Shown here one piece after another: positions 1 to 62,888 of a stretch of 64,000 nt of DNA. The notes below the pieces were generated by a model that saw nothing but the letters and a program-made list of their open reading frames with translations, was not told the DNA's origin and searched no databases. A program made the translations under genes and the position numbers. Within the stretch, counting starts at the first letter, position 1, and every line of letters starts with the position of its first letter. This stretch comes from Gammaproteobacteria bacterium. GTDB taxonomy: Bacteria > Pseudomonadota > Gammaproteobacteria > Steroidobacterales > Rariloculaceae. The stretch covers positions 1,135,987 through 1,199,986 of the forward strand of contig OY761822.1 in NCBI GenBank assembly GCA_963664945.1. The letters run 5' to 3'.

Positions 1-1279
1 GGCAGACGAGGTCCCACTCGCCTTGAACCTTGTCCAGGCCGCGCAGGCTGAAGCGGCGGAAGCCGAGCGCCTCCTTGATCCACCCGATCGGCGCCTCGGC
101 CAGCCATTTGCGTTGCGCGTACAGCGCCCGCCCCGCCTCCGTCGCCAGTTTCTCCGCCATGCCCGCCTTCGCCGGATGCTTCTCCGCGTCCACCGCGACC
201 CGGCGCCCGCCCTCCCGGCCCAGCGCCACGTAACCGTCCACCCCCCGGTCCTCCAGCGCCTCCAGGTCCGCCTCGTTGCAGTACCCGGCGTCGGCCAACA
301 CCGTCTCCGGGCGCTCCCCGTGGTTGGCCTCCACCTCCTCCACCAACGGGACCAACCGGCCCTGGTCGCTGGCGTTGCACGACACCTCCACCGCGACGAT
401 CAACTGGTTCTCCCCCTCCACCGCCACCTGGGCGTTGTAGCATTGCTGGAAACCGTCCTGGGACGTCTTCATGATCCGGCTTTGCGGATCCGTGAAATTG
501 TCCTGCGCCTTCCCGTCCGGCTCCCCGTATTCGCGCTTGTAGGGCCGCCCGCCCTTCGGATTGCGCGTCTGCCCGGGCTTTCGCCCACGGGCCTCGTCCG
601 CGTCGCGCTGGCGCGCCTCCAGCCGCGCCTTCGCCGCCCGGATCGCCGCCAAACGGTCCTCCCGCCGGCTCAATTCCCCCGGCAACTCGTCGCCCCGGAA
701 ATCCTCCCCGAACCGCGCGTCCTCCGCCGCGTCGGTCTCCCGCGCCCGCGACACCAACGCCTCGATCTCCCCCTGAAGACGCTTCTCCTCCTCGATCATC
801 CGGGAATAACTCATCGCCTTGCGCTTGGAGGCGTTCGCCCGCACCTTCGTCCCGTCGATGCACAGCTTGCCGAAGTTCGCCACCCCGGTCTCCGCCGCCA
901 ACCGCACCACCTCCACGAACAACCGCTTGAAATCGGCCAAATGACGCCGACGGAACTCGCAGATCGTGCGGTGGCTCGGAAAGTTCCCCGCCGCCAACAC
1001 CCGGAACGCCACGTCCTCCTCCAACTTGCGTGCGATCCCGCGCGAGGAAAACACCCCCGTCGCATAACCGTGGATCAGCACCTTCAGCATCATCCGCGGC
1101 TCGTACGGCGACTTGCGCCGACCGTCGCCCTCGTACGGGGCGTAAAACGCCGTCAGGTCCAATCCGTCCACCAAGTCGCCCACGTGCTCCGCCAAATGGC
1201 CCGGGGACAACCAGTCCCGCAAACTCGGTGGCAACAACAACGACTGATCCGGATGGTACGGGCGAAATCTCGTCGGCAT
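1..1279 (-). CDS. IS1182-family DDE transposase, partial (C-terminus continues past the left edge of the window)
   Basis: Not in the ORF track because it has no in-window stop. Hand translation of the minus strand from ATG 1279..1277 gives MPTRFRPYHPDQSLLLPPSLRDWLSPGHLAEHV...RMMLKVLIHGYATGVFSSRGIARKLEEDVAFRVLAAGNFPSHRTICEFRRRH...IDGTKVRANASKRKAMSY...YNAQVAVEGENQLIVAVEVS...VLADAGYCNEADLEALE. This is an InsH-type N-terminal domain plus a DDE core, as in IS1182 transposases. The listed 23..1345 + ORF is its low-complexity antisense shadow. Confidence 0.85.
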   Translation of the reverse strand, partial: MPTRFRPYHPDQSLLLPPSLRDWLSPGHLAEHVGDLVDGLDLTAFYAPYEGDGRRKSPYEPRMMLKVLIHGYATGVFSSRGIARKLEEDVAFRVLAAGNFPSHRTICEFRRRHLADFKRLFVEVVRLAAETGVANFGKLCIDGTKVRANASKRKAMSYSRMIEEEKRLQGEIEALVSRARETDAAEDARFGEDFRGDELPGELSRREDRLAAIRAAKARLEARQRDADEARGRKPGQTRNPKGGRPYKREYGEPDGKAQDNFTDPQSRIMKTSQDGFQQCYNAQVAVEGENQLIVAVEVSCNASDQGRLVPLVEEVEANHGERPETVLADAGYCNEADLEALEDRGVDGYVALGREGGRRVAVDAEKHPAKAGMAEKLATEAGRALYAQRKWLAEAPIGWIKEALGFRRFSLRGLDKVQGEWDLVC

Positions 1280-1330
1280 CCCAGACTCCTCAACAACCCA
1301 ACGAATGTATTATCCCATGCGAGTTTCTAC
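1..1330 (-). mobile_element. Partial IS1182-family insertion sequence whose end abuts the 3' end of the SNF2 helicase gene
   Basis: Transposase start at 1279 is preceded by about 50 bp of lower-GC terminal sequence (..gaatgtattatcccatgcgag..). The exact terminus cannot be set because the partner inverted repeat is off-window. Confidence 0.55.
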
Positions 1331-4111
1331 GGCGCAGGCTCCTAGGCGGACAGGGAAGGCGAGCGTCCGCACCCAGCGGTGAAAGGTCTCGCGCAGTTCG
1401 TTCACCGCAAGTTCCTCGACACTCAGCATCACGAGTGCGTCCGCGCCGTCGGGGACATCCCCTATCCGTACTGTCCAGCGCGAAACCTGATGTTCGCCCG
1501 GGTAGCGGCGCCGCGTGAGCATACCGAGCGCCCGCTGTATCAAGGGGTGAGCGAGATGCAACAGCAGGGCATCGCGGCGGGGCAGGAACACGCGCAGGCG
1601 GCCGAGCCGCTCGATGAACGGCTCGGGGCTGAAGGCGAGCTGCCGCATCGGGCCCAGTTCGCTGCCCAACGCGGGACGGCGCACGGCGTCGTCGATGACG
1701 TCGCGCCAGCCCCGAAGGCCGGGATTAACGACACGGTAGAATCCGGGCTCCTCGGCCACCTGGAGTTGCGGCCGCCCGCCCGCGATGGACATTGCGGTTT
1801 CAAGGGTTTCGCCAAGCGCGTCCGGGTCGAGGTCGATCTCCGCGGCCATGGCGTCCAGGAGCGCCGCTTCACCCAAGGAGTCGCCATCCGTGGCGAGCGT
1901 GGTATCGGCTTCGAGCGCTGTGCGTCCCCGCATCGCATCGAGACCCGCGTCCAGGTCCGCCTGCACGTGTGCGGTGTCCTCCCCGCGAATCAGCCGGCGA
2001 TGTGCGGCGCGATCGAATATCTCGTTGACCGAGCCGAGGTCCTCGCGAATCCCGTCCGCCTTGCGGATGACGTGGCCAAGAAAGCGCAGGTCGGCGTCCG
2101 CATCGCTGGCGAAGTGATGCACCGTCACGTCCCGGGCCTGCCCGTAGCGGTCGAGCCGCCCGTTGCGCTGCTCCAGGCGGGATGGGTTCCACGGGCAATC
2201 GTAGTGCAGAAGGTAGCGCGCCGTGCGGTGCAGATTGAGGCCCTCGGACGCGGCATCCGTGGCCACGAGAATGCGTACGGCCGAGGCCGGGTCGTTGAAG
2301 GCTGTCTTGACGTTCTCGCGATCCGACTCGTTCATCCCTTCGGGGCCGCCGGTGCCGAACAACGTCAGTACTCTCTCAGCGGGATACCGTTCTCGCAAGC
2401 GCCTCGCAACGTAGTCGAGCGTCGTCTTGTATTCGGTGAAGACGATCAGGCGTTCATCGTTTCGAAAACCGTCTGCTTCGACCGAATCCGGGGCGTTGAC
2501 CTGCGGGCGGTCGCGCAGCAAACGTTCGATCAAGGCGGTCAGCGCTTCGAATCGTGCATCCACGGCAGGCGTCTGCTCGGTTATCGGCATGTCGTCGAGA
2601 TCGAAGCCGATGGCCTCAAGCGCCCTTTCCATGCGGCGAATCTCCCCGCCTACATCGTCCGCAAAGTTCTTGAGCCAGGCACCCACGACCGTTGCCGCTG
2701 TGGCTTCGCGCTTCTGCGTTTCACGGTCGTCGCCGGTCTCCTGTCGCAACGCCCGTTCCGCTGCCGTCAACTCCGATTCGGAAGCCGCCTGGTCGGCAAG
2801 GCCCTGTCTGGTTCGGCTCCAGGATTCCGCGAACGCGGTGGGGCACGAAAGCAATCGCTTCCCGAGAATTTCCACGGCGAATGTGCCGGCGCGGCGCCGT
2901 TGTCCCGTTCCCTCGGCGATGAGGTCGCGAACGGCGGAGCGGAAGGCATCGAAAGCGGCGGACAACTCCGATTCCAGGGGGTCGGTAGCCAGGCTCAACG
3001 CCTTGGGAGGCTGTCGGGTGCAAAAGCGCGGCGCCGCGGCGCCCGCGTTGATGTCGCGTTTCAACCTGCGAATGACCACGTCGTTCACGCGCGACTGCAT
3101 CGCGGCGCCCATCTCGCTGGTGCGGGTGAAGCGGACCGGATCCATCATTTCCAGCAAGCCGGTAAATGAACGTGTGTGGCCGTTGTGGGGCGTGGCGGAA
3201 AGAAACAGCCGGTGCTCGAACCGTGGCGCCACGAGACGCAACGTCTGGCACAGCTCGCTGTCTTCGCCGAAGGGGGAGGGCATCAGGTTGTGGCATTCAT
3301 CGACGATCAGGAGATCCCAGGGCAGGTGGGGCGAACCCTCGGGCGTGTGGCAAGCCGACAGGAACTGCTCGCGCACGTCGGGCTGGCGCAGGTAGTGGTA
3401 CGAAGTAACGATACGGCTGAATGAACGCCACGGGTTCGCGTCCATGCCGAGCCGGCGGCGAAGGCGCTCCGAGCCTTGCCGGTCGACGACCTCAAAGCGC
3501 AACGAGAATTTTTCCCAAAGTTCATCCCGCCACTGCTGGCGCAGCGACGCTGGGGTGAGCACCAGCACGCGTTGGATGCGGCGGCGCAGCAGCAACTCCG
3601 TAAGGATCAAGCCGGCTTCGACGGTTTTGCCCAGCCCCACGTCGTCGGCGATCAGCAAGCTGACACGGGGCATGCGAAGCGCCTTAAGGAGGGGCACGAG
3701 TTGATAGTCCTCGATACAGACGCTGCCGTGGAACGGGCTTGCCACCGGCTCGCGGTTCAAGGGGCCGTCGCCGTCCGGGTCGAGGTAGGGCGACAGTGCT
3801 GTCCAACGGGCGGCCCGGACGAGGGCGTCGAATTCTTCCGCCGGCATGGCGTCCGTTGTTGCCGGATCGGGCAGCGCGTTGGGTTCGAGGAGATTGCGCC
3901 TGGGCTCGAGTTCCCACAGGAGCCGCTCCTCGGAGGGTGCGCGATTGTCCTGATATTCGAGATGCACGAGGTGAAGGCGTCCCGCGTCGCCATCGAATGG
4001 CTCGACGGCGGCTACCACACCGCGCCGATTGCGCACGGTTGCAAGCATTCCTGCGCGGGGGATCGCGATCTCCGTCGCGCGAGTATTCACGAGCCGCTCC
4101 ACGGCGGCCAA
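1310..4111 (-). CDS. SNF2/SWI2-family helicase of the defence-island type (DISARM DrmD-like), probably 3'-truncated by the IS1182 element
   Basis: 933-aa ORF with motif I ADDVGLGKT, motif II LLIVDECHNL, motif III FLSATPHNG and motifs V-VI ATDAASEGLNL / YDCPWNPSRLEQRNGRLDRYGQ. It has a long N-terminal leader and a long C-terminal extension. The last codons (..ACAVETRMG*) are read from IS-proximal sequence. Confidence 0.85.
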   Translation of the reverse strand: MAAVERLVNTRATEIAIPRAGMLATVRNRRGVVAAVEPFDGDAGRLHLVHLEYQDNRAPSEERLLWELEPRRNLLEPNALPDPATTDAMPAEEFDALVRAARWTALSPYLDPDGDGPLNREPVASPFHGSVCIEDYQLVPLLKALRMPRVSLLIADDVGLGKTVEAGLILTELLLRRRIQRVLVLTPASLRQQWRDELWEKFSLRFEVVDRQGSERLRRRLGMDANPWRSFSRIVTSYHYLRQPDVREQFLSACHTPEGSPHLPWDLLIVDECHNLMPSPFGEDSELCQTLRLVAPRFEHRLFLSATPHNGHTRSFTGLLEMMDPVRFTRTSEMGAAMQSRVNDVVIRRLKRDINAGAAAPRFCTRQPPKALSLATDPLESELSAAFDAFRSAVRDLIAEGTGQRRRAGTFAVEILGKRLLSCPTAFAESWSRTRQGLADQAASESELTAAERALRQETGDDRETQKREATAATVVGAWLKNFADDVGGEIRRMERALEAIGFDLDDMPITEQTPAVDARFEALTALIERLLRDRPQVNAPDSVEADGFRNDERLIVFTEYKTTLDYVARRLRERYPAERVLTLFGTGGPEGMNESDRENVKTAFNDPASAVRILVATDAASEGLNLHRTARYLLHYDCPWNPSRLEQRNGRLDRYGQARDVTVHHFASDADADLRFLGHVIRKADGIREDLGSVNEIFDRAAHRRLIRGEDTAHVQADLDAGLDAMRGRTALEADTTLATDGDSLGEAALLDAMAAEIDLDPDALGETLETAMSIAGGRPQLQVAEEPGFYRVVNPGLRGWRDVIDDAVRRPALGSELGPMRQLAFSPEPFIERLGRLRVFLPRRDALLLHLAHPLIQRALGMLTRRRYPGEHQVSRWTVRIGDVPDGADALVMLSVEELAVNELRETFHRWVRTLAFPVRLGACAVETRMG

Positions 4112-4772
4112 ATATGAGGCATAGGATTACTTGTTCAGTTGTTGTTCTTGGCGTCCGTGCGCTGCCTGCCGGCGGGATGCTGGCTGTAGCAATGTCGTGT
4201 CATTCCGGTATTCGGTCATAATATCAAGATGAATGCGAGGACGGGCTACCTCAACGTAAGCGGCTGTACGGGATTGCGAGAGATTCCGGAGGTTTCGGGC
4301 CTCCGAATAGTCGAAAATTTCCTGACTCCCAAGGAACAGGCAGACTGCGTTCGGCGAGTAATTGCGGCCAATGACCATTGGCGACATGACCTTAGTCGTC
4401 GGGTCCAGCACTATGGATGGCGGTACGACTATAAGGCCCGCGCCATTACGCCAGATATGGAAATAGGTGCCTTGCCTGAGTGGTTGGCAAGGTTGGCTCG
4501 CAAGCTGTATGAAGAATCAGGGTTGTTTGAAAGAGTACCGGATCAGGTGATAGTAAACGAATACCTTCCTGGGCAAGGTATTGCCATGCATACCGATCAT
4601 CCTGGATTTGGGCCGACCGTGTGCACGATCTCCTTGTTGGATGACTGGGAGATGGATTTTTCCAGAGATGGGAAACAAAAGTTTCCCGCGTTGTTGAAGC
4701 GCGGGTCTTGCGTCCTGCTTGCCGGTGACGCTCGGTCCATATGGAAACATGGGGTCGCACCGCGCAAGACGG

Positions 4773-6859
4773 CAGGGTGATTTCACGCTACGGATCGACG
4801 CCGGGCTAAGCGACGTTCCGCGGGCCGCTTGGGGGCCAAGGCGTGCGGAGGGTTCCGGGCTGGTGTATGGAGCGCGGCGTATTCGTCACCGGGTGGGTGG
4901 GGAAGCGGGTCCGGGAACGCGGCGCGGAGAGGGGTCGCCGGCGACGTTTGCGGGGGGGCGCGGTTTGCGGCGGCGGGGCCGGGTGTCTCAGTGCGGGGAC
5001 AGGATGGCGTCGAGCGCGTCTGCGCGGCGCATCATGAAGTGGAGGTTCGCCTCGGGCAGGTAGCGGAAGCCGCGGTGGAACACGACGGCGAGCGCGATGT
5101 TGTTCAAGATGGCGTTGTTGGCGGGTGCGTGGCCCTTGCGGACGCGGCTGGCGTCCTCGCCCATGGTGGCGTCGCGGCGGTAGTGGTTGGCGTTCTCGAC
5201 CTGCCAATGGCCGCGGTTCCAGGCCAGCAGCCGCGCCGGAGCGGCGCGTTCGGCGGGCACCGTGGTGATGCCGTAGGCGGTCTCGGCCGAGGTTGCACCG
5301 GTCTTGGCGTCGGTGCGCTCGCGCACGACGCGGAACGCCTGGCGGGCGCCGGGGAAGGGTCCGAGCGTCTTCGGCGGCAGGTCGCGCGCGGCGATGCGGC
5401 GCGCCTCGATGCGCCCGTGCGCCTTCGCGGGTTCGTCGGCGTGGTGGCGCACGTCGTTGCCGTCCCAGTCGATCGCCGTGAGTTGGGCGAAGGTGTCGGG
5501 GCAGTTCGCCTTGACCGACAGCACGTAGTCCGCGCCGTGCGTCTCGACGATGGTCCGTGCGGTGTCGCGGGTGGCGTGCAGGGCGTCCAGGGTGAGTACG
5601 CAGCCGCGCAGGTCGACATCCTCGAGCAGCGCACACAGGGCCGCGATCTCGCCGCCGTCGTCGCGGCAGCAGCGGCTCGCGACGGGGCGCCCGGCGTGGG
5701 TAACCAGCGTCACCGTCTCGAAGTACGTCGCGTCGTCGGTGTGCCGGTTGGCGCCGCGGATGCGCTTGCCGTCGGCGGCCAGCACCTGAGGGTCGTCCGC
5801 CGCCGCGAGGCGCGGCGCCGCCCACCGCGACAGCACCTCCTGCAACGCGTCCGGGTCGGTGTTCATCAGCACCCGGCAGACGGTCGAGTCCGACGGCGCG
5901 ACCCAGCGCCCCGCCGCCGGGTCGCGCCAAGCGTGCAGCGCGCGCAGTTCCTTCTGCTCCAGGTTCCTCGCGAAGCGCTCAGTCGCCGCCGGGCCGTGCT
6001 GCCCGGCGAGCCGCGCCAGCGCGCAGATCGCCAGCACCGTCGCGAGGCGGTGCTTGCGGCCCTGCCCGCGGCGCGCGTCCGGCACCTCCGCGAACAGGTC
6101 GCGCAGCGAACGCAACTCCGCGCGCGTGTAGCGCACCGGCACCGCCCGACACGACCACTCCGGGCGGTCCGCCGGGTCCGCGAGCCGCCGCCGCGCATCC
6201 CGACGCAACACCCGCACGTACATCTCCTTCGGCGCCCGGTGCGGGTCCGTGTACGAGCCGTTGTGGCGCGCGAAGCCCTTCGTGCGGCCCACCCGCGTCC
6301 AGTTCGACGCGTCGTAGCACGTGCCCCGAAACCGCGCCGGGTCCACGAACGTCTCGGCCAACTCCAGCGGATGCCCGTGCAGCGCCGCCCAGTCACCGCT
6401 CAGCCGCCGCACGCTCCGCGACAGCGCCCGCGACGCCAGGTTGGGCACCCCCGACGCCGCCGGCAGCACCAAAAACCGCGTGTTGTTCCCGATCAGGTGC
6501 AGGCGCCGGAACTGCACCGACCGGTGCCAGCCCAGCCAGCGGTCCCGCGGCGCGCACTTGAACGCCCCCGACTGCCAGCCCAAAAGCGCCAGCCAGTGCC
6601 CGCGCCACTCCGCAACATGGCGCAGACCACGCCCCGCGAACTGCCGAAAACCCAAGTAGTGGTGCTCCTCCATCAGCGCATCCCAGCGCCGCCGCTCCTC
6701 CGCGCGGACCGGACGCACCTCAACCTCCCCGACCACCACCGCCGCCTTGTCGAATTCCGCCGACATGCAGCGCGTTGTACACCAAACAACGCCGAAAAGC
6801 CAGACCCCCGAGACCAACCCCTCAAATCACCGACTTCCGGCTAGCGTGAAATAGCCCTG
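4773..6859 (-). mobile_element. ISAs1-family insertion sequence, 2,087 bp, complete with inverted repeats and a 10-bp target site duplication
   Basis: Left end is CAGGGTGATTTCACGCTA (4773..). Reverse complement of the right end is CAGGGCTATTTCACGCTA (..6859), matching 16/18. CAGGG termini are the ISAs1 hallmark as I recall it. Direct repeat CGCAAGACGG lies at 4763..4772 and 6860..6869. Confidence 0.85.
4988..6766 (-). CDS. ISAs1-family transposase with an N-terminal DUF4338 (Druantia DruA-like) domain
   Basis: C-terminal half has ..LDALHATRDTARTIVETHGADYVLSVKAN..LLAWNRGHWQVENANHYRRDATMGEDASRVRKGHAPANNAILNNIAL, typical of ISAs1. The N-terminal ~190 aa (WDALMEEHHYLGFRQFAGRGLRH..LLGWQSGAFKCAPRDRWLGW..IGNNTRFLVLP..ETFVDPARFRGTCYDASNW) match my memory of DUF4338. 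ATG at 6766 is preferred over the TTG at 6817 used by the ORF track. Confidence 0.8.
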   Translation of the reverse strand: MSAEFDKAAVVVGEVEVRPVRAEERRRWDALMEEHHYLGFRQFAGRGLRHVAEWRGHWLALLGWQSGAFKCAPRDRWLGWHRSVQFRRLHLIGNNTRFLVLPAASGVPNLASRALSRSVRRLSGDWAALHGHPLELAETFVDPARFRGTCYDASNWTRVGRTKGFARHNGSYTDPHRAPKEMYVRVLRRDARRRLADPADRPEWSCRAVPVRYTRAELRSLRDLFAEVPDARRGQGRKHRLATVLAICALARLAGQHGPAATERFARNLEQKELRALHAWRDPAAGRWVAPSDSTVCRVLMNTDPDALQEVLSRWAAPRLAAADDPQVLAADGKRIRGANRHTDDATYFETVTLVTHAGRPVASRCCRDDGGEIAALCALLEDVDLRGCVLTLDALHATRDTARTIVETHGADYVLSVKANCPDTFAQLTAIDWDGNDVRHHADEPAKAHGRIEARRIAARDLPPKTLGPFPGARQAFRVVRERTDAKTGATSAETAYGITTVPAERAAPARLLAWNRGHWQVENANHYRRDATMGEDASRVRKGHAPANNAILNNIALAVVFHRGFRYLPEANLHFMMRRADALDAILSPH

Positions 6860-6960
6860 CGCAAGACGGAGATGCTGGCGTGCGGCAAACGGAACCGTGA
6901 ACGTCGCTTGTCTCTGACATTCCGCACAGTGCTTAATCGCGAAAGTCGGAAACGATAGAG

Positions 6961-12367: not shown

Positions 12368-12444
12368 GTAGCACCTGGGCGCCTGCGGCGCAGGCGAAGG
12401 GCTTGTCCGAGTGGCGCGGGCGGCTTTGGTAGCACCTGGGCGCC
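12368..12444. repeat. Two copies of a 16-nt direct repeat GTAGCACCTGGGCGCC upstream of dsbC, at the left edge of the low-GC islet
   Basis: Copies at 12368..12383 and 12429..12444. Copy 1 is followed by the palindrome CGCCTGC-GGC-GCAGGCG. Copy 2 is followed by cgaggctc-gaaga-cgaggctc. Confidence 0.6.
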
Positions 12445-12570
12445 CGAGGCTCGAAGACGAGGCTCTGATTTCAGGGTCGCTGGGCCTTTTGTCGACTTGA
12501 AAGCCGATGATTTGTTTTACCAGGACCGGATTAGTGCGGGGATGTAGTGACATAACTGGCAAACTAGATT

Positions 12571-13449
12571 CTACGGAAATTCAAACCCGAAGGATTCTGA
12601 ATCCGGGTCAATCGTTAATATCCCATTCTTCAATAGATCAATACCTATAATATTTCTTGTATAGTCGGATATTAGAACTGGAAAATCCTTAACTAGCACA
12701 TCACCAAACGAAAATGAAGGTACGATAGCGTGGGCAACTCGAACATTGCTTATTCCGTCGACCGTAATGCGAACACGATCCGAAAAAACGAGGTTCGATA
12801 GATCACCCAAAGCTCTTTCTGCTAAATCCATGGAAATCTGCGTTTGAAGCCCTCCAGAATCAATAATGAACTTATCGACAATACCATTGACATTCACTTC
12901 GGCATAGAGATATTGTTGAACAATTTCTAATGGATGCATGTTGATATTCTCTATAGAGAAACGACCATACGAAATAAAATTGTCTTTGAACGAAATTGAG
13001 TAGCGGTTACCATTAAAAAACCCTCCACCCACAATACCGTCAACTTCTCGCTGCACGATTTCTGAAGCAAGAACGGTATCCAATACAAAAAATACGCTTT
13101 CCCGCGTCCGCAACTTGCCGACACTGAATTGCCCCGGTCGGACTACGTCTATTTCCGTCTCACCACCATCAGGATTCTGGAATTTTGCTGCGGATACATC
13201 CAAATTGTATCGTTGAACAAAATCCTTTGATATGGCTGGCAAGCTACTGCCAGTGTCGACAAGCAAGTTGACGTTTCGTCCGTTAATGCGGCCTTCGACC
13301 CAATAGCTAGGATTCTCGTCATGAAAATCATGACGGTACATCGGAATCACAATGTGCGATGTGCATGATGAAAGGACCGACACTGAAGCTACAAGCAGTG
13401 CGATATGTCTGATCCATAACGGCGAATGGCCAATGCTGTTAGCTATCAT
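12571..13449 (-). CDS. Retropepsin-like (clan AA) aspartic protease lipoprotein with two catalytic-type motifs in one chain
   Basis: Low-GC gene. Start moved to MIANSIGHSPLWIRHIALLVASVSVLSSC (lipobox LSSC). Motifs are LLVDTGSS in the N-terminal half and FIIDSGG in the C-terminal half, giving a pseudo-dimeric layout. Confidence 0.7.
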   Translation of the reverse strand: MIANSIGHSPLWIRHIALLVASVSVLSSCTSHIVIPMYRHDFHDENPSYWVEGRINGRNVNLLVDTGSSLPAISKDFVQRYNLDVSAAKFQNPDGGETEIDVVRPGQFSVGKLRTRESVFFVLDTVLASEIVQREVDGIVGGGFFNGNRYSISFKDNFISYGRFSIENINMHPLEIVQQYLYAEVNVNGIVDKFIIDSGGLQTQISMDLAERALGDLSNLVFSDRVRITVDGISNVRVAHAIVPSFSFGDVLVKDFPVLISDYTRNIIGIDLLKNGILTIDPDSESFGFEFP

Positions 13450-13549
13450 ATGGTTCCAATAAGTTGTAGGTATAATCGTGTTCTGGGTGCGTTTGAACAG
13501 TAACGAAAAATGCAGCCCAAAACGTAGGCTAAACCGACTTATCTTGATG

Positions 13550-14203
13550 TCACCGAAAATCAACAGCTTGGATAGTAAGTGTCTTGGAAGTTGCGGGTGA
13601 TGTTACTTCAGCTACTGGAAACCCGTTAATCAATTCGTATACTCGCACATTCAAGTGTTCACCAGATCTAGCGTCCGTTATAATCTGGACAGTAGGTAAA
13701 GTCATTTTGAACGCTAGAGGCGCACCCTGCTCTTTCATCCTCTTGATCGCCCAACTGTAGACTTCGTCTGGGTTGCTCAGAGACTGTATAGTTCCAGATA
13801 CATGCCAATTTGTTTCCAGTCCATCCACAACGAATCCGTAATCATCAAGTACATTCAAAACACCGAATGTTTTTTCTTGAACAATGATTGCTTTATGGCC
13901 ATCTATCTGATAAACAAAGTCAAGAGAGAGGCCAGTTCGTACACGTTGGTATGCATCTGAAGAACTACTCCCGTGTGCCGATCTAGTGCTTCTTAGTGTA
14001 TAACTCGGAGGACAATCCCTCTCAGTAGGCGCAACACTTCCATCGGAACAAAATACTCCTTCGACAATTATTCCATATGTGCAATTGCCAAATTGATCTG
14101 GTACACAACCTAACCTAACGTATGAACACATCGATCCCATCATTAGGGCGCAAATAGAAACAAGTGAAAAGCGTTACACGATAGCATTGAAGCTGTTCAT
14201 CAT
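13550..14203 (-). pseudogene. Cys-rich hypothetical secreted protein; reading frame from the SD-preceded ATG 14203 is broken by an in-frame TAA at codon 10 (alternative: shorter CDS 13550..14143)
   Basis: Minus strand reads gagggagaatATGATGAACAGCTTCAATGCTATCGTGTAACGCTTTTCACTTGTTTCTATTTGCGCCCTAATGATGGGA.., which translates as MMNSFNAIV*RFSLVSICALMMGSMCSYV.. The signal-peptide-like segment spans the stop at 14174..14176. The ATG at 14143 has no SD. No family recognised. Confidence 0.5.
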
Positions 14204-14429
14204 ATTCTCCCTCATATGTTCGAAATATTGCGAAGACGTACATAGCCCATTAGCATAGACTTCGATGGAAGTCAAAGTTGCAGTTGGCAGCCTAGTGGAC
14301 GAATGCTACGCTGGATCGTCACATTGGGGGCGAATGGGGATCTGTTCCCCCGTTACCCTCCGGTAACGGGCAATGAACGGCGGAAACAGACACACCAGTC
14401 GTGAATTCCCGGGCCACGTCGGACGGTCG

Positions 14430-15609: not shown

Positions 15610-16533
15610 TCAACCTCTCGGATGGTGCCTGGCGTGAAGCTCCTTCATGCGCTCTCGCGCCACGTGTGTGTAGATCTGGGTGGTCGAGACATCGCTGTGG
15701 CCCAGCAGCAGTTGTACCACGCGCAGATCCGCGCCGTGGTTGAGGAGGTGGGTGGCGAAGGCGTGCCGAACCGTGTGCGGGGAGAGCTTCTTCGAGATAC
15801 CCGCGTGGCCGGCGTGGCGCTTGATCAGGTACCAGAACGCCTGGCGCGTCATGGGTCCGCCGCGGCGCGTGGGGAACAGAAACTCGGTCTGACGCCCGCG
15901 GAGGATCTCCGCCCGCGGGCCCAGGACGAATTTCTCCAGCCAGTCCTGCGCTTCGTCGCCCAGGGGAATCAGCCGCTCCCTGTCACCCTTGCCGATGATC
16001 CTCAACACCCCCTGGTTCAGGTTCACCTGGGACAGTTTCAGACCAACCAGTTCGGACACCCGCACGCCCGTGGCGTACAGCAACTCCAGCATCGTGCGGT
16101 CACGGTGGCCCAGGGGTTGGGCGACATCGGGTGCGCCGAGCAGGGCCTCCACGTCCGCCTCGGTGAGCGAATGCGGAAGGCGCTGTCCGACCCTCGGCAT
16201 GTCGATCTGCGCGGTGGGATCCACCCTGATCGCGCCCTCTCTCAGCAGGTACCGGTAGAAGCGCCTGAAAGTGGAAAGCTGACGCGCGGTTGAACGCGGT
16301 TTCGCACCCGTGCTCACACGCCACGCCAGGTATTCAAGCAGATCGGCCTCGGCCGCGTTCATCAGGCTGGTTCCATGCTCGACGAAGTGCCTGTTGAGGG
16401 CGAGAAGATCGGAGCAGTAGGCGCGCAGCGTATTTTCCGAAAGGCCGCGCTCGGCCCAGATTCCGTCCAGGAACCAGTCGATGGCCGCCGCCGGATCCGC
16501 GAAACGGTCGGTCGTCATGGAATGGCCTGCCAT
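15610..16533 (-). CDS. xerD: Site-specific tyrosine recombinase XerD
   Basis: IDWFLDGIWAERGLSENTLRAYCSDLLAL.. N-terminal SAM-like domain, and a catalytic C-terminus with ..HTVRHAFATHLLNHGADLRVVQLLLGHSDVSTTQIYTHV. Start set at MAGHSMTTDRF (16533 or 16518), giving ~300 aa. The 373-aa track ORF over-extends. Confidence 0.9.
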   Translation of the reverse strand: MAGHSMTTDRFADPAAAIDWFLDGIWAERGLSENTLRAYCSDLLALNRHFVEHGTSLMNAAEADLLEYLAWRVSTGAKPRSTARQLSTFRRFYRYLLREGAIRVDPTAQIDMPRVGQRLPHSLTEADVEALLGAPDVAQPLGHRDRTMLELLYATGVRVSELVGLKLSQVNLNQGVLRIIGKGDRERLIPLGDEAQDWLEKFVLGPRAEILRGRQTEFLFPTRRGGPMTRQAFWYLIKRHAGHAGISKKLSPHTVRHAFATHLLNHGADLRVVQLLLGHSDVSTTQIYTHVARERMKELHARHHPRG

Positions 16534-16562
16534 GGCAGGCGGTAATATAAACTGACAGCGTT

Positions 16563-16622
16563 CCGGTGTGCCTGCCGGTGTGCCTGCCGGTGTGCCAGCC
16601 AGCGTGCCAGCCGGTGTGCCGG
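16563..16622. repeat. 5 x 12-bp tandem repeat (CCGGTGTGCCTG consensus) in the xerD / acyltransferase divergent intergenic region
   Basis: ccggtgtgcctg ccggtgtgcctg ccggtgtgccag ccagcgtgccag ccggtgtgccgg, read directly. Confidence 0.9.
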
Positions 16623-16688
16623 GTGCGAATTGCTCATGGCCATTGCGGTCCCAGCTTGCCATAGCGACGGTTCCGCGGAAACGAATTA

Positions 16689-17450
16689 ATGCTATGTTCA
16701 GCCTCCGTGACTCTCCGGAATCTGAAATCAATGCTGGCGCGGGCGGTTTACGGCCCCTACGTGTGGCTGATGCTGGCGGCCGCGGTGATCCCGACGCTGG
16801 CGCTGCTTCTGGTCACGCCGACGCTCGGCGCACGGCGGCATGTTGCTCACCGGGGCGCCCGGGTCTTCTTTCTGCTCATCGGCAGCCCCATCCGGATCGA
16901 AGGCGCCGGCAATCTTCCGGACGAACCCTGCGTCGTGGTCGCCAATCATGCCAGTTACCTGGACGGGATCATCCTCAAGGCCGCTTTGCCACCGCAATTC
17001 ACCTTCCTGATCAAGGCTGAAATGACGTCCGTACCGCTGGCGGGTTTCCTCCTGAAACGCATCGGTTCCGCATTTGTGAAACGCGGGGAGACCTCTCACC
17101 GGCTCAGGACGGGGCGCCGCCTGCTCAAGGGCGCCATGCAGGGTGAATCGCTGGCATTTTTCCCCGAGGGCACCTTCGACGGCAACCCGGGATTGAAGCC
17201 CTTTCGTCCGGGGGCTTTTGCTGCGGCGTGGCGGGCCGGATTGCCCGTCGTACCCATTGTCATCAGCGGTTCCCGGCACATGCTGCCCGCGCAAGTCTGG
17301 CTGTGCGCGCCGGCGCGAATATCCATTACGATATGCGAACCTGTCGATTCCGGAGTCCTCGAATCGGCTTCGGAATTGTCAGCGGTCAGCCGCACCCGAA
17401 TGCTCGAATATCTTGGGGAGCCCGACCTTCAGAAGGTAGACTCGAGATGA
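16689..17450 (+). CDS. Lysophospholipid (1-acyl-sn-glycerol-3-phosphate) acyltransferase family protein
   Basis: NHASYLD (HX4D block) and FFPEGTFDG blocks with an N-terminal TM segment. The start may be 16689 or 16731. The stop overlaps the next gene's start (ATGA at 17447..17450). Confidence 0.8.
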   Translation: MLCSASVTLRNLKSMLARAVYGPYVWLMLAAAVIPTLALLLVTPTLGARRHVAHRGARVFFLLIGSPIRIEGAGNLPDEPCVVVANHASYLDGIILKAALPPQFTFLIKAEMTSVPLAGFLLKRIGSAFVKRGETSHRLRTGRRLLKGAMQGESLAFFPEGTFDGNPGLKPFRPGAFAAAWRAGLPVVPIVISGSRHMLPAQVWLCAPARISITICEPVDSGVLESASELSAVSRTRMLEYLGEPDLQKVDSR

Positions 17451-19745: not shown

Positions 19746-21497
19746 ATGGCATTCGGCGTTTCTGGAGCGGCACCGATCAACGCGCTCGTGGAGCAAGCGC
19801 TGCACCGATTGTCGCGAGGCGAACCGCCCGAAGGCATCGAGATGGAGCGGGTTGACTTCAAGGAGGAGCGGGGCCGGCGGGGTCCCGGAGGAACCGTTTC
19901 CCCTGGCGAGACGACCAACGAGCGTGCCGCCGACCACCTGGCGGCGGAAATGGCTTGCATGGCAAATACTCCGGGCGGCGGTGCGGTCATTGTAGGCGTC
20001 GCCGACGATGGCGACCGAATAGGTACGCGGCTCGACGCGGACTGGCTCCGCCATCGCATCTGGGAACTCACCTCGCATCAACTGACGATCGCGGTTGGCG
20101 AGGCACGACTTGACGAATGCCGCCTCTTGATCCTGACCTGCATCGAGGCGCTTGCGCCCGTCCGGTACGGCGGAAAGTTGCGGTGGCGGGTGGGTGCCAA
20201 CTGTGTCGAAGTCGATCCGGTCGTCTGGCAATCGCGGATGCTGGAGAGGATCGGTTTCGACTGGTCGGATCAGGCTTCCGGTCAGACCCTGGACGATGTG
20301 AGCCCGGGCGCCATCGAGGTCGCCCGACGTTACCTTCGGGAAGCGAACGGCGACGATTCCGACACCAGTCTGGCCAACGCCACCGACGCCGATCTTCTCC
20401 GGCGGCTGAATCTGGTCAAGGACTCGCGCGAACTCACCAACGCGGGGTCGCTGTTGTTCGTAGCGACTCCGTGGCCGGGGGTCGACTACATTCGCCGCGA
20501 CATGCCGGGGGGCGACAGCACCCTTCGCATCGAGGGTGCCGGACCGCTGCTCGTGCAAGTGCGCGAGGTCGAGCAGGCGAGCGAGGTGGCCAACCGTGTG
20601 ACGCACACGGCCGAGGGTTTTGCCCAAGGCAGGGTTCGGGCGATCCCTCCCAGGACGCTGCGCGAGGCCATCGTGAACGGTCTCGTCCACCGCGACTGGC
20701 TGGCGCCGCGGCCCACCGTCATCGAGCATGTCGGCGATACGCTGACCGTGACCTCGCCCGGCGGGTTCGTGGGCGGCGTAACGCCCGACAACATCATCAC
20801 CCATCCGGCGGTTCCCCGTTACCGAAACCTGTCCGAAGCCATGGCCGCCTTGGGTCTGGCCGAGCGCGAGGGGATCGGGGTCGACAGGATGGTGCGCGAC
20901 ATGCTCGCCATCGGGCGGCCCGCTCCGGTCATTGCCGAGGTTGACGGACCCTACGTGCGGGTCGCGCTGCTCGGCGGCGACCCCGATACCGCCGTCATCG
21001 ATCTGGTGGCTGCGCTAAACCCCGCATGGGCCAGCAATGTGGAGTCGCTTCTACTCATTGCACACATGACACGGCACGGTTGGGTGGACGCGGAGTCAGC
21101 GACTCCGCTTCTCCAGCGATCGTCGGTGGAAGAAGCCGAGCAGGCGATCCGCCGACTGGCAGATGCGCGCTTGGGCACCGATGATCCGGCCTCCGTGATC
21201 GCACGCGTGCAGGGGATTCCCCCTCACCTGCCCGATGCGTTTCGTCTATCCGACACGGTGCGGGGCCGGCTCGCCCACCGGGGCGCTTCGCCAAGCGTCC
21301 CCGAAAGCCGCGAAGCGCTCGTTCTGGAATGGTGCCGAGCCCGGGGACGTGTCTCCTCGACCGAGGTCGCCGACCTGACGGGGTTAAGCAAGGTCTACGC
21401 CGGCAAGCTCCTGACCAGGCTGGCCGCTGCCGGGCAACTCACGGCGGGGAGGCCTGTGCGCAGGGGCCGGGGATTCTTTTACGTTCTGGCTGAGTAG
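19746..21497 (+). CDS. AlbA_2 (Schlafen-like) + HATPase_c_4 + C-terminal wHTH protein (putative ATP-dependent DNA-binding regulator / defence-associated)
   Basis: EMERVDFKEERG.. and ..MANTPGGGAVIVGVADDGDRIG (AlbA_2 pattern). REAIVNGLVHRDW..THPAVPRYRNLSEAMAALGLAEREGIGVDRM (HATPase_c_4 pattern). C-terminal VSSTEVADLTGLSKVYAGKLLTRLAAAGQL (wHTH-like). Confidence 0.75.
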   Translation: MAFGVSGAAPINALVEQALHRLSRGEPPEGIEMERVDFKEERGRRGPGGTVSPGETTNERAADHLAAEMACMANTPGGGAVIVGVADDGDRIGTRLDADWLRHRIWELTSHQLTIAVGEARLDECRLLILTCIEALAPVRYGGKLRWRVGANCVEVDPVVWQSRMLERIGFDWSDQASGQTLDDVSPGAIEVARRYLREANGDDSDTSLANATDADLLRRLNLVKDSRELTNAGSLLFVATPWPGVDYIRRDMPGGDSTLRIEGAGPLLVQVREVEQASEVANRVTHTAEGFAQGRVRAIPPRTLREAIVNGLVHRDWLAPRPTVIEHVGDTLTVTSPGGFVGGVTPDNIITHPAVPRYRNLSEAMAALGLAEREGIGVDRMVRDMLAIGRPAPVIAEVDGPYVRVALLGGDPDTAVIDLVAALNPAWASNVESLLLIAHMTRHGWVDAESATPLLQRSSVEEAEQAIRRLADARLGTDDPASVIARVQGIPPHLPDAFRLSDTVRGRLAHRGASPSVPESREALVLEWCRARGRVSSTEVADLTGLSKVYAGKLLTRLAAAGQLTAGRPVRRGRGFFYVLAE

Positions 21498-21685
21498 GGG
21501 GAATGAGCGGGGTCGTCATGTGGTGGTGTGGTGGGAACGTGGATGCGCTTCGGGGAGGGCGGCTCGTGCCTCGTCCGACGATCTCGGGCGGTCCGAGGAC
21601 ACGAATTGCGGCGATATCGACTAAATTGATCATTTTGAGAACGAACTCCACGGGCTTCGAATTCAGACGACTATCACGCAAGACT

Positions 21686-23929
21686 TCACCGCTTGTTATC
21701 GGTGATTTCCCTTGCCAACGCTGGCAGTGAGGCGAGGTCAAGGCGACTATGTATTGTTTCCTCGCGGAGCAGATGTTCACCAAGGAAACGGTCGTATTTT
21801 TCCACGATCAGGTTCTGTCCACCCGATAAGACGCTTTCTGCATCCACAGACTTCGAACCGGCGATTTGTCGAAGCGCTGTTTCTACCGGTTCAACGTTTT
21901 CCTCATGGTCCACGTCAATAAATCCATCGAAAGCCGTCGTTCGATATCCTTTCGTCCGCAATGCCAGAGCGAGTGTCGATGTCTTCATCGTCCCCGCCCA
22001 GGTTGCGATCAGGCGACTTCGCTCACCGATTTCGCAGATTTGCCCTGTGTCCAATCGAAGCCTGCGGTACTGATGTCGCGCGTCGTCGAGTATCCGTACG
22101 GAGTTCTGGTCGAGATAAATCGGTACGTGCGCACCGGCCAATACCGCCCTCATCTTTTCCACGACCTTGTCATGGATCAAGCCCCCGCTTCCGCCGAAAC
22201 GAGGAGGTCGGCCCGTCCGATCGGCAACGACTTCAATCTCCTTCTCCTTGTCATGAATCGCCTTGATGCGCCAACGTCGTCCGGAAAATACGATCGTCAT
22301 CTTGGGCGCGAGCACCATGCTGACCGGAAGGGTTCCCAAAGTCTTGCGGTTGTGGGTGATTCTGAATTCTTCAGGTGTCTGAAACACCGCGTAGAAGCTG
22401 TAGTGCTCGACGATCCGCTCGCCCTGAGGTCCCAGCAGCAATACGCCGTCCGGCGCCTGTTCCACCAATGCCACGTCCCTCTCGCCAAGGCGTCTGAGCA
22501 GACGCGCGAAAAGCCCGGCATCGACGCGCTTGAACGGACCGCGCACACACAGCGTGACGAACAGTTGTTTGGCCCTCGCTCCGCCGTGCTCGGCTATGAC
22601 CGATAGAATCTGGTGTGTGAGCGTGGACAGGTGAAGCGCTTGCGGGGCCGGCGGCTCACACCACTTCTCGATCAGCAACTCCACCATTGCAATTGAACGC
22701 ACAAGTCTCAAGTGAAGCCGATCAATCGGATGACAATTGCCCCCGGGTTCATCCTCTATCGCATACATCCGCAGTACGGCCGCTTCGCCGCTGCGGCGCC
22801 CCGAGCGACCCAGACGTTGCCGGAGCGAGGCGACAGAGAACGGCGGTCCGACCTGCGCCACGCATTTGATCGCGCCGATGTCTATCCCAAGCTCAAGTGT
22901 CGATGTGCACACGGCCGTTGCGGCCGCACGCGTCTTCAGCCGCTTTTCCAGGTCTGTCCGGTGCATGCGGTCCAGATTGGCGTGATGTGGAAAGAACTCC
23001 ACCGGCACACGCGCCCGCTCCGACATGTCGCGCAGCGCGTCCGCGTACCATTCCACGTTCTGGCGAGATCCCGCGAAAACCAGGTTTCGGCTGCCGCGCA
23101 GCCTGTGGAACAGGTGCCGTGCCACGGCCCGTTGCGCCGCAAACGCCTCCTCGCCGGATTGCCCGTTCCTCGCCTGCTCCGGCTTCTTCATGTACCCGCG
23201 CAGCTGTACCCTGAGTTCCGGTCCTGTCGATTCGCTCTTCAGTAACTCCACTGTCTCGGATGCCTCCGGACGCAGGTACTTGCGAGCCAATTCCATCTCT
23301 CCCAAAGTCGCCGACAACCCGATTCGACGAATTCTGCGACCCACTGAAATTTCCAATCTCGTCAGGAGCGATCGCAGATGAATCCCCCGTTCGTTGTCGA
23401 GCAATGCGTGCAACTCGTCGACCACGACCGCGCGCGTGCTCTTGAACAGCCTGCAAATTTCAAGCCCGCGCAGCACGAAGAGCGCTTCGAGCGATTCGGG
23501 CGTTATCAGCAAGACACCACTCGGGGTCTCCCGCGCGCGTTTCTTGACCCCCCGGCCTATATCCCCGTGCCACGGATGGACCGCCAAGTCCATCTTGGCG
23601 CAAAGGTCTTCGAGACGCCCGAACTGGTCGTTGATCAACGCCCGCAACGGGCCGACATAGACGAGATCGAACCCCCCGTCACCCGGCTTGTCCAGCACCG
23701 AAGAAATCAACGGGAGGAACGCGGCTTCCGTCTTGCCTCCGGCGGTGGCCGCCGCGATGATCACGTCGACCTCTTCCTCCAGCAGCAACGGAATCGCCCG
23801 TTCCTGAATGTCGTGCAGGCTCTCCCAGCCCTTGTTCCAGATCCAGCGCCTGACGGGCGCCGCCAGCAAGTCAAACGATGTCGAGCGTTCAGAGCCTGAA
23901 GGATGCGAGTTCATCGTCCTCCACGTCAT
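21686..23929 (-). CDS. sngC: Lhr-like DEAD/DEAH-box helicase, Shango SngC / BREX BrxHI-like
   Basis: Motif I AATAGGKTEAAFLP, Ia VGPLRALINDQ, II VVVDELHAL, III GLSATLG. 747 aa; overlaps the upstream ATPase gene by 41 nt. Confidence 0.8.
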   Translation of the reverse strand: MTWRTMNSHPSGSERSTSFDLLAAPVRRWIWNKGWESLHDIQERAIPLLLEEEVDVIIAAATAGGKTEAAFLPLISSVLDKPGDGGFDLVYVGPLRALINDQFGRLEDLCAKMDLAVHPWHGDIGRGVKKRARETPSGVLLITPESLEALFVLRGLEICRLFKSTRAVVVDELHALLDNERGIHLRSLLTRLEISVGRRIRRIGLSATLGEMELARKYLRPEASETVELLKSESTGPELRVQLRGYMKKPEQARNGQSGEEAFAAQRAVARHLFHRLRGSRNLVFAGSRQNVEWYADALRDMSERARVPVEFFPHHANLDRMHRTDLEKRLKTRAAATAVCTSTLELGIDIGAIKCVAQVGPPFSVASLRQRLGRSGRRSGEAAVLRMYAIEDEPGGNCHPIDRLHLRLVRSIAMVELLIEKWCEPPAPQALHLSTLTHQILSVIAEHGGARAKQLFVTLCVRGPFKRVDAGLFARLLRRLGERDVALVEQAPDGVLLLGPQGERIVEHYSFYAVFQTPEEFRITHNRKTLGTLPVSMVLAPKMTIVFSGRRWRIKAIHDKEKEIEVVADRTGRPPRFGGSGGLIHDKVVEKMRAVLAGAHVPIYLDQNSVRILDDARHQYRRLRLDTGQICEIGERSRLIATWAGTMKTSTLALALRTKGYRTTAFDGFIDVDHEENVEPVETALRQIAGSKSVDAESVLSGGQNLIVEKYDRFLGEHLLREETIHSRLDLASLPALAREITDNKR

Positions 23930-25190: not shown

Positions 25191-25201
25191 GCTGAACTTC
25201 C

Positions 25202-27415: not shown

Positions 27416-27677
27416 ACCAATCTCGCTGACCAGCTATTTAAAAGTAGCGCGAGCCCCTACGTCCAAGACGAGGAACCATGTTCGGAAAAAGGTGACAAGA
27501 ACCAAAACGACAATAATCGTGATCAGAGTAGTCAGACTGCTATCCTCCGGGCTGTAACGAAACTACCTTGTACCAGACATCTCACCGGTATTTTGTGCTG
27601 TCTTTTGAACAATGGCGCAGCCAAATCCGCTGATTGGCGGTAATTCCTTGAGTCGTGGGTCCGTTACGATTCTTCGT

Positions 27678-28295: not shown

Positions 28296-28296
28296 A

Positions 28297-29535: not shown

Positions 29536-29670
29536 ATCGTCATTCCGTGAAGCTGGGGGGCCAAGTTTCCGTCGATTGCCCGGAAACGAAATTCGGCAAG
29601 AGTGTATCGCACAGAAGTCCGCAGGGGGATTCACAATAACAGCCAGAAGGCTTGACTGTAGTTTGGCTGC

Positions 29671-62885: not shown

Positions 62886-62888
62886 GTC

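What the first reader, a model, noticed from the sequence alone, without database searches (positions are those of the whole stretch)
1310..4111. Defence-type SNF2 helicase (DrmD-like) whose 3' end abuts an IS1182-family element; the rest of its system may lie off-window or be lost
This 933-aa SNF2 ATPase has complete helicase motifs and long non-helicase N- and C-terminal regions. It resembles the stand-alone SNF2 proteins of DISARM-like and other methylase/helicase defence operons rather than RapA. Transcription runs toward the left edge, but the ORF ends in nine unrelated codons. An IS1182-family transposase gene starts about 30 bp beyond that end. Downstream partners (methyltransferase, DUF1998 helicase, PLD nuclease or similar) would be beyond the IS. 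The locus may therefore be an inactivated system or an orphaned helicase.
Basis: partly seen in the sequence, partly recalled or inferred. Interest (0 to 1): 0.55.

Follow-up and report, generated by a model that had tools for sequence, protein, structure and literature searches.

The report
Transposon-truncated phage-defence helicase gene remnant
A phage-defence helicase gene of the DrmD/ArmA type has lost its last 182 codons to an insertion sequence and sits without its usual methylase and helicase-nuclease partners anywhere in the 64-kb window; it is an ordinary case of a mobile element breaking a defence system.

Summary
ORF 1310..4111 (-) exists, though the likely start is GTG at 4090. 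It scores above NCBIfam's curated cut-off for the DISARM SNF2 helicase DrmD. It is 97% identical over residues 1-917 to a 1099-aa homologue (P0001). Homology stops exactly at window 1341/1340. Nine unrelated codons and a stop follow. An IS1182-family (ISKpn6-like) transposase gene starts 30 bp further on and runs off the window.

The missing 182 residues are conserved in 62 full-length homologues, so the gene is truncated.

In 73 of 81 related loci the helicase is followed by a large PglX/Eco57I-like methyltransferase. The third partner is one 1800-2100-aa helicase with a fused DUF1998 domain that scores as DruE, not DrmA. No separate DrmB or PLD gene was seen. That architecture is ARMADA (Bell et al. 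2025), most like its Type I, not canonical class 1 DISARM.

No armB, armC or armA 3' end lies anywhere in the window. Whether they sit just beyond the IS or are lost cannot be decided, because the source genome is in none of the collections.

dN/dS of 0.15 and no internal stops suggest recent inactivation. Ordinary; low interest.

The parts
1340..4090 (-). armA/drmD-like SNF2 helicase gene, codons 1-917 of about 1099 (5' 83% of the gene). Start GTG at 4090. No internal stop or frameshift.
   Evidence: NF038317 DISARM_DrmD 653 bits, cut-off 610. PADLOC DrmD 641 bits. 97% identical to P0001 residues 1-917. tblastn places the match at window 4090..1340. dN/dS is 0.15 with 0 stops.
1310..1339 (-). 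Nine IS-derived codons (ACAVETRMG) plus the TAA stop that close the truncated reading frame.
   Evidence: There is no homology to P0001 or to any of the 80 related loci beyond residue 917.
4091..4241 (-). Upstream region of armA retained with the gene. It contains GGAG 7 nt before the GTG start and presumably the promoter. Homology to the intact relative ends at 4241.
   Evidence: blastn gives window 4241..1341 = L001 9831..12750. The sequences were compared.
1..1339 (-). IS1182-family insertion sequence (ISKpn6-like), partial. One terminus lies at about 1339/1340. The transposase ORF runs from ATG 1279 off the window edge; 426 aa are seen, without a stop.
   Evidence: NF033551 350.8 bits, cut-off 270. 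The translation has no stops. It is 64-67% identical at nucleotide level to annotated IS1182/ISKpn6 transposase genes on plasmids. There is no second copy in the window.
4229..6958 (+). Context, not part of the defence system: a divergent AlkB-like 2OG-Fe(II) oxygenase gene (4229-4771 plus 6869-6958). It is split by an ISAs1-family IS (4772-6860) that has 19-bp inverted repeats and an 8-bp target duplication, GCAAGACG.
   Evidence: Pfam 2OG-FeII_Oxy_2, and DruA + DDE_Tnp_1_assoc + DDE_Tnp_1. NF033564 ISAs1 166 bits. Inverted repeats are pair I9. The target duplication and the restored 210-aa ORF with RLSLTFR are shown.

Best explanation
This is the 5' 83% of an armA/drmD gene. That gene encodes the Swi2/Snf2-type translocase of a DISARM-related restriction-modification-like anti-phage system, most likely ARMADA of the Type I kind.

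An IS1182-family element inserted after codon 917. It removed the conserved last 182 residues and added a 9-codon tail.

In intact relatives armA is translationally coupled to armB, a roughly 1800-aa PglX/Eco57I-like adenine methyltransferase. The pair works with armC, a roughly 1800-2100-aa YprA/DruE-like helicase with a fused DUF1998 domain.

By analogy with tested ARMADA and DISARM systems, methylation marks self DNA and the helicase(-nuclease) components act on unmodified invading DNA. In the E. coli ARMADA tested so far, every gene is needed. This step is inferred, not shown here.

The copy in this window should therefore be non-functional for defence, for two reasons. The protein is truncated, and anything downstream is cut off from the armA promoter.

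Two sub-scenarios remain open. My estimates are:
- about 0.55 that it is a simple recent insertion, with the armA 3' end, armB and armC directly beyond the IS, whose far end I estimate lies a few hundred bp off-window;
- about 0.45 that an IS-associated deletion or rearrangement left an orphan fragment.
For: **Family.** NF038317 scores 653 bits, above its 610 cut-off, covering profile positions 2-830 of 1021. PADLOC DrmD covers profile positions 7-847 of 1040.

**Truncation.** P0001 is 1099 aa and 97% identical over residues 1-917, and then continues. Sixty-two full-length homologues end at about P0001 residue 1099. The missing segment is as conserved as the rest of the protein, with 38 positions conserved at 90% or more. 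The AF2 model predicts it as two long helices plus a terminal strand, with local pLDDT 60-87.

**Sharp junction with an IS.** Searches show the break; searches identify the IS.

**Synteny.** armB follows armA in 73 of 81 loci. In L001 the armB start overlaps the armA stop by 4 nt. The third gene scores DruE at 341 bits against DrmA at 45 bits, and carries DEAD + Helicase_C + MZB in one protein. This matches the published ARMADA definition.

**Essentiality.** All ARMADA genes, and the ArmA Walker A and B motifs, are essential for defence in E. coli.

**Recency.** dN/dS is 0.15 and there is no stop in 917 codons. The neighbouring ISAs1 still has a perfect 8-bp target duplication.

**Absence.** No armB, armC or armA 3' end is found in the 64 kb.
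Against: - The other side of the IS is not visible, so neither a target-site duplication nor the fate of the partners can be checked.
- The ARMADA assignment rests on relatives (97% and 60-80% identical), not on this locus.
- In the closest relative, L001, the armC gene runs off the fetched locus. The presence or absence of a GajB-like ArmD (Type II) or of a downstream nuclease gene was therefore not seen.
- The curated models still name the protein DrmD.
- The low dN/dS is equally compatible with a fragment that retains some function.
- The global AF2 model is poor (mean pLDDT 58), so the structural role of the lost C-terminus is only suggested.
Confidence: 0.85

Rival explanations
1. [quoted passage not shown]
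For: The NCBIfam equivalog DISARM_DrmD is passed. The best PADLOC models are named DrmD. Plasmid homologues annotated drmD sit in drmD-methyltransferase-drmA-DUF1998 operons, for example Oscillatoria pOSC7112.01.
Against: - Those canonical drmD genes are only about 33% identical to this one.
- All close relatives (57-97% identical) that show a third gene have a single fused helicase-DUF1998 protein. It scores DruE at 341 bits against DrmA at 45 bits.
- No separate DrmB and no PLD gene were seen in the flanks.
- ARMADA was defined after the PADLOC models used here (2023), and its ArmA is described as DrmD-like. The model names therefore do not discriminate.
Confidence: 0.1
2. The 926-aa product is a functional short form: a stand-alone SNF2 protein that works without the C-terminal segment and without ArmB or ArmC.
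For: The promoter region, the ribosome-binding site and all ATPase motifs are intact. There is no stop in 917 codons, and dN/dS is 0.15.
Against: - The C-terminus is conserved, and is present in all 62 full-length homologues.
- The tail is IS sequence.
- Deleting any ARMADA gene abolishes defence.
- The low dN/dS is what a recent insertion would give, because most of the divergence from L001 predates the insertion.
Confidence: 0.04
3. The armA-IS junction is an assembly chimera at a repeated IS, and the gene is intact in the real genome.
For: IS copies are classic break points or mis-join points in metagenome-assembled genomes. The source genome could not be found for cross-checking.
Against: - A mis-join happens inside a repeat, not at its exact terminus. 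Here unique armA sequence abuts the IS end 61 bp upstream of the transposase ATG.
- No second copy of the IS exists in the window.
- Comparable decayed loci occur in independent assemblies: L073, L013, L016 and NC_008697.
Confidence: 0.04

Closest known systems
[quoted passage not shown] 2025, bioRxiv 10.1101/2025.09.15.676423; EHEC study PMC13463889)
   Same: ArmA is a BrxHII/RapA/DrmD-like Swi2/Snf2 helicase. In relatives of this gene it is paired with a PglX-like methyltransferase and with one large YprA-family helicase that has a fused DUF1998 domain and resembles DruE most closely. Both published gene orders occur, C-A-B and A-B-C.
   Different: - Here only a truncated armA remains; armB and armC are not in the window.
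- Direct sequence comparison with E. coli ArmA was not possible.
- Some related ArmC proteins end in a Peptidase_S24 domain, which is not mentioned in the paper.
- Relatives often carry an extra Schlafen/AlbA_2 gene, or a TcmP-DUF5131 pair, between armB and armC.
Class 1 DISARM, DrmD (Ofir et al. 2018, from my own knowledge; Aparicio-Maldonado et al. 2021, bioRxiv 10.1101/2021.12.28.474362)
   Same: It is an SNF2-like helicase placed in front of an adenine methyltransferase. It passes the NCBIfam DISARM_DrmD equivalog cut-off.
   Different: Canonical DISARM has the core triplet DrmA (helicase), DrmB (a separate DUF1998 protein) and DrmC (PLD). Relatives of this gene have a fused DruE-like protein instead. 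Annotated plasmid drmD genes are only about 33% identical.
BREX BrxHII and RNA-polymerase-associated RapA
   Same: They share the Swi2/Snf2 ATPase core. RapA is the best solved-structure match (E 5e-33). BrxHII scores 237 bits.
   Different: The scores are far lower than for DrmD. The N- and C-terminal regions are not shared. RapA scores 154 bits against a cut-off of 576.
ISKpn6 and other IS1182-family insertion sequences
   Same: The transposase passes the IS1182 model. It is 64-67% identical at nucleotide level to annotated IS1182/ISKpn6 transposase genes.
   Different: Only one end is visible. The inverted repeats, the target duplication and the last few dozen codons are off-window. No second copy was found in the window or in the JGI metagenomes.

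Membership tests
ARMADA | BrxHII/RapA-like (DrmD-like) Swi2/Snf2 helicase ArmA with intact Walker A and B motifs | tested here: met
   The protein has SNF2-rel_dom + Helicase_C. DrmD-type models score 641-653 bits. GLGKT and DECH are present. It is, however, truncated after residue 917 of about 1099.
ARMADA | Adjacent PglX-like methyltransferase ArmB | tested here: not met
   It is absent from the whole 64-kb window (tblastn). It is present directly downstream in 73 of 81 related loci. Its presence beyond the IS cannot be tested.
ARMADA | YprA-family helicase ArmC with fused OB-CON-DUF1998, of the ARMADA/Druantia clade | tested here: not met
   It is absent from the window. In relatives a 1800-2100-aa DEAD + Helicase_C + MZB protein scores DruE at 341 bits against DrmA at 45 bits. 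Clade placement by phylogeny was not done.
ARMADA Type II | GajB-like UvrD helicase ArmD (RelE fusion) after ArmC | tested here: inconclusive
   No such gene appears in the C-A-B loci L031 and L047. In the A-B-C loci armC runs off the 10-kb flank, so the position after armC was not seen.
DISARM class 1 | SNF2-like helicase DrmD | tested here: met
   NF038317 equivalog, 653.2 bits against a cut-off of 610.
DISARM class 1 | Core triplet: DrmA helicase, separate DrmB (DUF1998) and DrmC (PLD) | tested here: not met
   None is in the window. In close relatives the helicase and DUF1998 are fused in one DruE-like protein, and no PLD gene was detected in the flanks examined. A canonical drmD-methyltransferase-drmA-DUF1998 operon was seen only with a homologue at 33% identity.
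IS1182 family insertion sequence | IS1182-type DDE transposase | tested here: met
   NF033551 350.8 bits, cut-off 270. The 426 aa seen are open. It is related to ISKpn6.
IS1182 family insertion sequence | Terminal inverted repeats and target-site duplication | not testable with these tools
   Only one terminus (about 1339/1340) lies in the window, and the other end is off-window. A metagenome scan with the terminal 21-mer gave only a chance match.
ISAs1 family insertion sequence (neighbour at 4772-6860) | ISAs1 transposase, terminal inverted repeats, 8-10-bp target duplication | tested here: met
   NF033564 165.8 bits, cut-off 70. The inverted repeats are 19 bp and 89% complementary (pair I9). 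The 8-bp duplication is GCAAGACG, and removing the IS restores the AlkB-like ORF. The 8-10-bp expectation for the family comes from my own knowledge of ISfinder.

The most novel reading that the evidence does not exclude
The truncated ArmA (917 aa plus a 9-aa IS-derived tail) keeps its promoter region, ribosome-binding site and every ATPase motif. On this reading it is expressed and retains a role of its own. It could act as a stand-alone or dominant-negative translocase, or the IS1182 insertion could act as a reversible off-switch for an ARMADA system whose methylase and effector genes survive just beyond the IS.
Probability: 0.05. Interest if true: 0.4.

Novelty: new member of a known kind. 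Interest (0 to 1): 0.15.

Why it matters
It matters little in itself. Insertion sequences breaking defence genes is a familiar route of defence-system loss, and four other decayed loci of the same family turned up among the relatives and plasmids examined.

The case has two modest uses.

- **Annotation.** Curated DrmD models (NCBIfam, PADLOC 2023) also capture ArmA of the recently defined ARMADA systems. A "DISARM DrmD" call with a fused DruE-like partner should be read as ARMADA.
- **Distribution.** This ARMADA lineage is shared at 60-80% protein identity by metagenome-assembled genomes of many phyla, which points to frequent horizontal transfer and turnover.

Tried and rejected
**Recovering the sequence left of the window.** Exact-protein look-ups of three window proteins found nothing: the 933-aa ORF, the AlkB-like ORF and the class III alcohol dehydrogenase. 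The genome-contig scan returned only relatives of 81% identity or less. The source genome is therefore not in the collections.

**Other copies of the IS.** A metagenome scan with the 21-nt IS terminus gave one contig, L082. It shares nothing else with the window, so it is a chance match. There is no second IS copy in the window.

**Relocated system parts.** tblastn of all L001 proteins, and of all 838 ORFs from the 81 loci, against the window found no armB, armC, c3 or armA 3' end.

**Structure.** The AF2 model of the full-length homologue has mean pLDDT 57.9 and pTM 0.38. That is too poor for a fold search, so none was run. Only the local secondary structure of the C-terminus is used.

**RNA genes.** The Rfam and tRNA scans of the window found none, so no tRNA-linked integration site is evident.

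**RapA reading.** Considered and rejected: 154 bits against a cut-off of 576.

**Natural short isoform.** Considered and rejected on the evidence.
Full report
**Observation.** It carries SNF2-rel_dom and Helicase_C domains. The stop codon TAA lies at 1312-1310. The next ATG on the same strand is at 1279-1277, a 30-bp gap. From that ATG a 426-aa reading frame runs without a stop to the window edge. It scores 350.8 bits on NCBIfam NF033551, IS1182 family transposase, whose cut-off is 270. At the nucleotide level it is 64-67% identical to annotated IS1182/ISKpn6 transposase genes on plasmids.

**What the helicase is.** NCBIfam's equivalog model for the DISARM SNF2-like helicase DrmD is passed, at 653.2 bits against a cut-off of 610. 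RapA scores only 154 bits against a cut-off of 576. The best PADLOC model is DrmD at 641 bits, while BrxHII and DpdE score far lower. Both DrmD models are matched only up to position 830-847 of 1021-1040, which already indicates a missing C-terminus.

**The truncation.**
- A search of the large protein collection gave thousands of homologues. The best 120 are almost all 1075-1150 aa long.
- The closest, P0001 (1099 aa), aligns to ORF residues 8-924 with 889/917 identities and then continues for 182 more residues. The last nine residues of the window ORF match nothing.
- At the DNA level, window 4241..1341 equals L001 9831..12750 at 95.8% identity. The two sequences part immediately after CCTAGG at window 1341.
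- P0001 starts at the GTG that corresponds to window 4090, which has GGAG 7 nt upstream. The true product is therefore probably 926 aa.
- In an alignment of 62 full-length homologues, all end at about P0001 residue 1099. The missing segment is about as conserved as the rest of the protein and has 38 positions conserved at 90% or more.
- An AlphaFold2 model of P0001 is poor overall (mean pLDDT 57.9). It does predict residues 940-1078 as two long helices followed by a terminal strand, with local pLDDT of 60-87.

The gene is truncated by the IS.

**Age of the event.** Over the 917 shared codons the window copy has no stop or frameshift. It differs from L001 with dS 0.086, dN 0.013 and dN/dS 0.15. 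Most of the divergence was therefore under purifying selection, so the insertion is probably recent. A retained function cannot be excluded on this evidence alone.

**Which system it belonged to.** In the closest relative, L001, the helicase gene is followed by these genes:
- an 1848-aa Eco57I/PglX-like methyltransferase (PADLOC DrmMI / type IIG), whose start overlaps the helicase stop by 4 nt;
- an embedded TcmP-DUF5131 pair (PADLOC candidate PDC-M30);
- a large DEAD + Helicase_C + MZB(DUF1998) helicase.

I fetched 80 further loci from species-representative genomes and clustered their ORFs. The methyltransferase follows the helicase in 73 of 81 loci. The large helicase is seen in 25 loci, a count limited by the 10-kb flank. 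Two gene orders occur: A-B-(Schlafen/AlbA_2 gene)-C, and C-A-B in four Ca. Azotimanducaceae loci.

A full-length example of the large helicase, L031:4002-9959 (1985 aa), scores DruE at 341 bits but DrmA at only 45 bits, and has helicase and DUF1998 in one chain. No separate DrmB and no PLD gene appeared.

This is the architecture published as ARMADA:
- ArmA is a BrxHII/RapA/DrmD-like Swi2/Snf2 helicase.
- ArmB is a PglX-like methyltransferase.
- ArmC is a YprA-like helicase closest to Druantia DruE.
- Type I has the order C-A-B, or the reverse; Type II adds a GajB-like ArmD.

Canonical class 1 DISARM is defined by DrmA, a separate DrmB and the PLD protein DrmC. Plasmid genes annotated drmD that sit in such operons are only about 33% identical to the window protein. 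I therefore file the window gene as a DrmD-family protein of an ARMADA-type lineage. ARMADA membership of this locus itself remains unproven, because its partners are not visible.

**What is left in the window.** tblastn with every L001 protein, and with all 838 ORFs of the 81 loci, found no armB, no armC and no armA 3' end anywhere in the 64 kb. The 150 bp upstream of armA are retained. Beyond them lies a divergently oriented AlkB-like oxygenase gene that does not occur next to armA in any relative.

That gene is itself split by an ISAs1-family IS at 4772-6860. The IS has 19-bp inverted repeats and a perfect 8-bp target duplication. Removing it restores a 210-aa ORF with the RLSLTFR motif. 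IS activity in this stretch is therefore recent.

**How it most likely works, or no longer works.** In the E. coli Type II system, deleting any gene, or mutating the ArmA Walker A or B motif, abolishes protection, and defence is direct and non-abortive. In class 1 DISARM, deleting drmD and drmMI together almost abolished protection against one of the tested phages.

From this I infer that the truncated product lacks a conserved domain. I also infer that the insertion separates any surviving armB and armC from the armA promoter and from translational coupling. The locus should therefore be inactive for defence.

Whether it is a simple insertion or an orphan left by deletion cannot be decided. 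Both outcomes have precedents among the relatives:
- L016 has a 9-kb insert with an IS1182-like element between an intact armA and armB.
- L073 keeps ArmA residues 1-637, then a transposase-like element, then only ArmB residues 1607-1848.
- L013 has ArmA residues 5-976 joined to the ArmB tail.
- A Nocardioides plasmid has drmD split by an IS1380.

**Failed attempts.** The source genome is not in any collection. The IS terminus has no other copy in the JGI metagenomes; the single hit is a chance match. No solved structure exists for the family beyond RapA-level similarity.

**Verdict.** The finding is an ordinary IS-inactivated defence gene, a new member of a known kind and of low interest.

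Noticed in passing
window 19746-29634: A cluster of other defence genes lies about 15 kb from the armA remnant. It holds a complete Shango system: SngC 21686-23929 (876 bits), SngB 23889-25190 (568 bits) and SngA 25202-27415 (293 bits), all on the minus strand. It also holds a HEC-01 pair at 27678-28334 and 28297-29634. A 583-aa ORF at 19746-21497 gives weak matches to PADLOC 'Aga' (SIR2-PNTD) models.
   Followed up: partly
window 4772-6860 (and 4229-4771, 6869-6958): An ISAs1-family IS with 19-bp inverted repeats and an 8-bp duplication (GCAAGACG) splits an AlkB-like 2OG-Fe(II) oxygenase gene. Its 609-aa transposase has an N-terminal DruA (PF14236) domain in front of DDE_Tnp_1_assoc and DDE_Tnp_1. 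A similar DruA-domain protein (37% identical) occurs twice in the decayed ARMADA locus L073.
   Followed up: partly
window 12368-12450: Two direct copies of GTAGCACCTGGGCGCCYGMGGC lie 61 bp apart, and occur nowhere else in the window. They flank a 39-bp stretch, 34 bp of which match (32/34, E 1e-7) the DUF5131 gene embedded in the intact ARMADA locus L001 (19224-19257). The site lies at the edge of a low-GC block. It could be a relic of an excised or deleted element, or a spacer-like capture. It is unexplained.
   Followed up: partly
window 12500-14300: A low-GC block (39-46% against about 64% for the surroundings) encodes a retropepsin-like aspartyl protease (12571-13563, minus strand) and a 197-aa protein without family matches. 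It is probably foreign DNA. A XerC/D-type integrase gene lies at 15610-16731.
   Followed up: no
L031:4002-9959, L045:677-6991, L047:4014-9977, L081:3175-9228: The ArmC-like helicases of four Ca. Azotimanducaceae loci (gene order C-A-B) end in a Peptidase_S24 (LexA/UmuD-like) domain with GDSM...VKRY. The ARMADA paper describes a Vsr-type nuclease C-terminus, and its text does not mention S24, LexA or peptidase.
   Followed up: partly
L001 4364-23300; loci L002-L081: The intact relative sits in a defence island: TmtA (1422 bits) lies upstream, and a TcmP-DUF5131 pair (PDC-M30) lies between armB and armC. ArmA homologues 60-80% identical occur in metagenome-assembled genomes of Binatia, Vicinamibacterales, Spirochaetia, Gemmatimonadota, Planctomycetota and Gammaproteobacteria. 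This suggests wide horizontal transfer. About 16 loci carry a Schlafen/AlbA_2 + HATPase_c_4 gene after armB.
   Followed up: partly
window 62655-63250: A small gene on the minus strand is homologous to a 202-216-aa protein found in ARMADA-containing loci L021 and L013. It matches in two different frames (62876-63232 and 62655-62879), so it is probably frameshifted.
   Followed up: no
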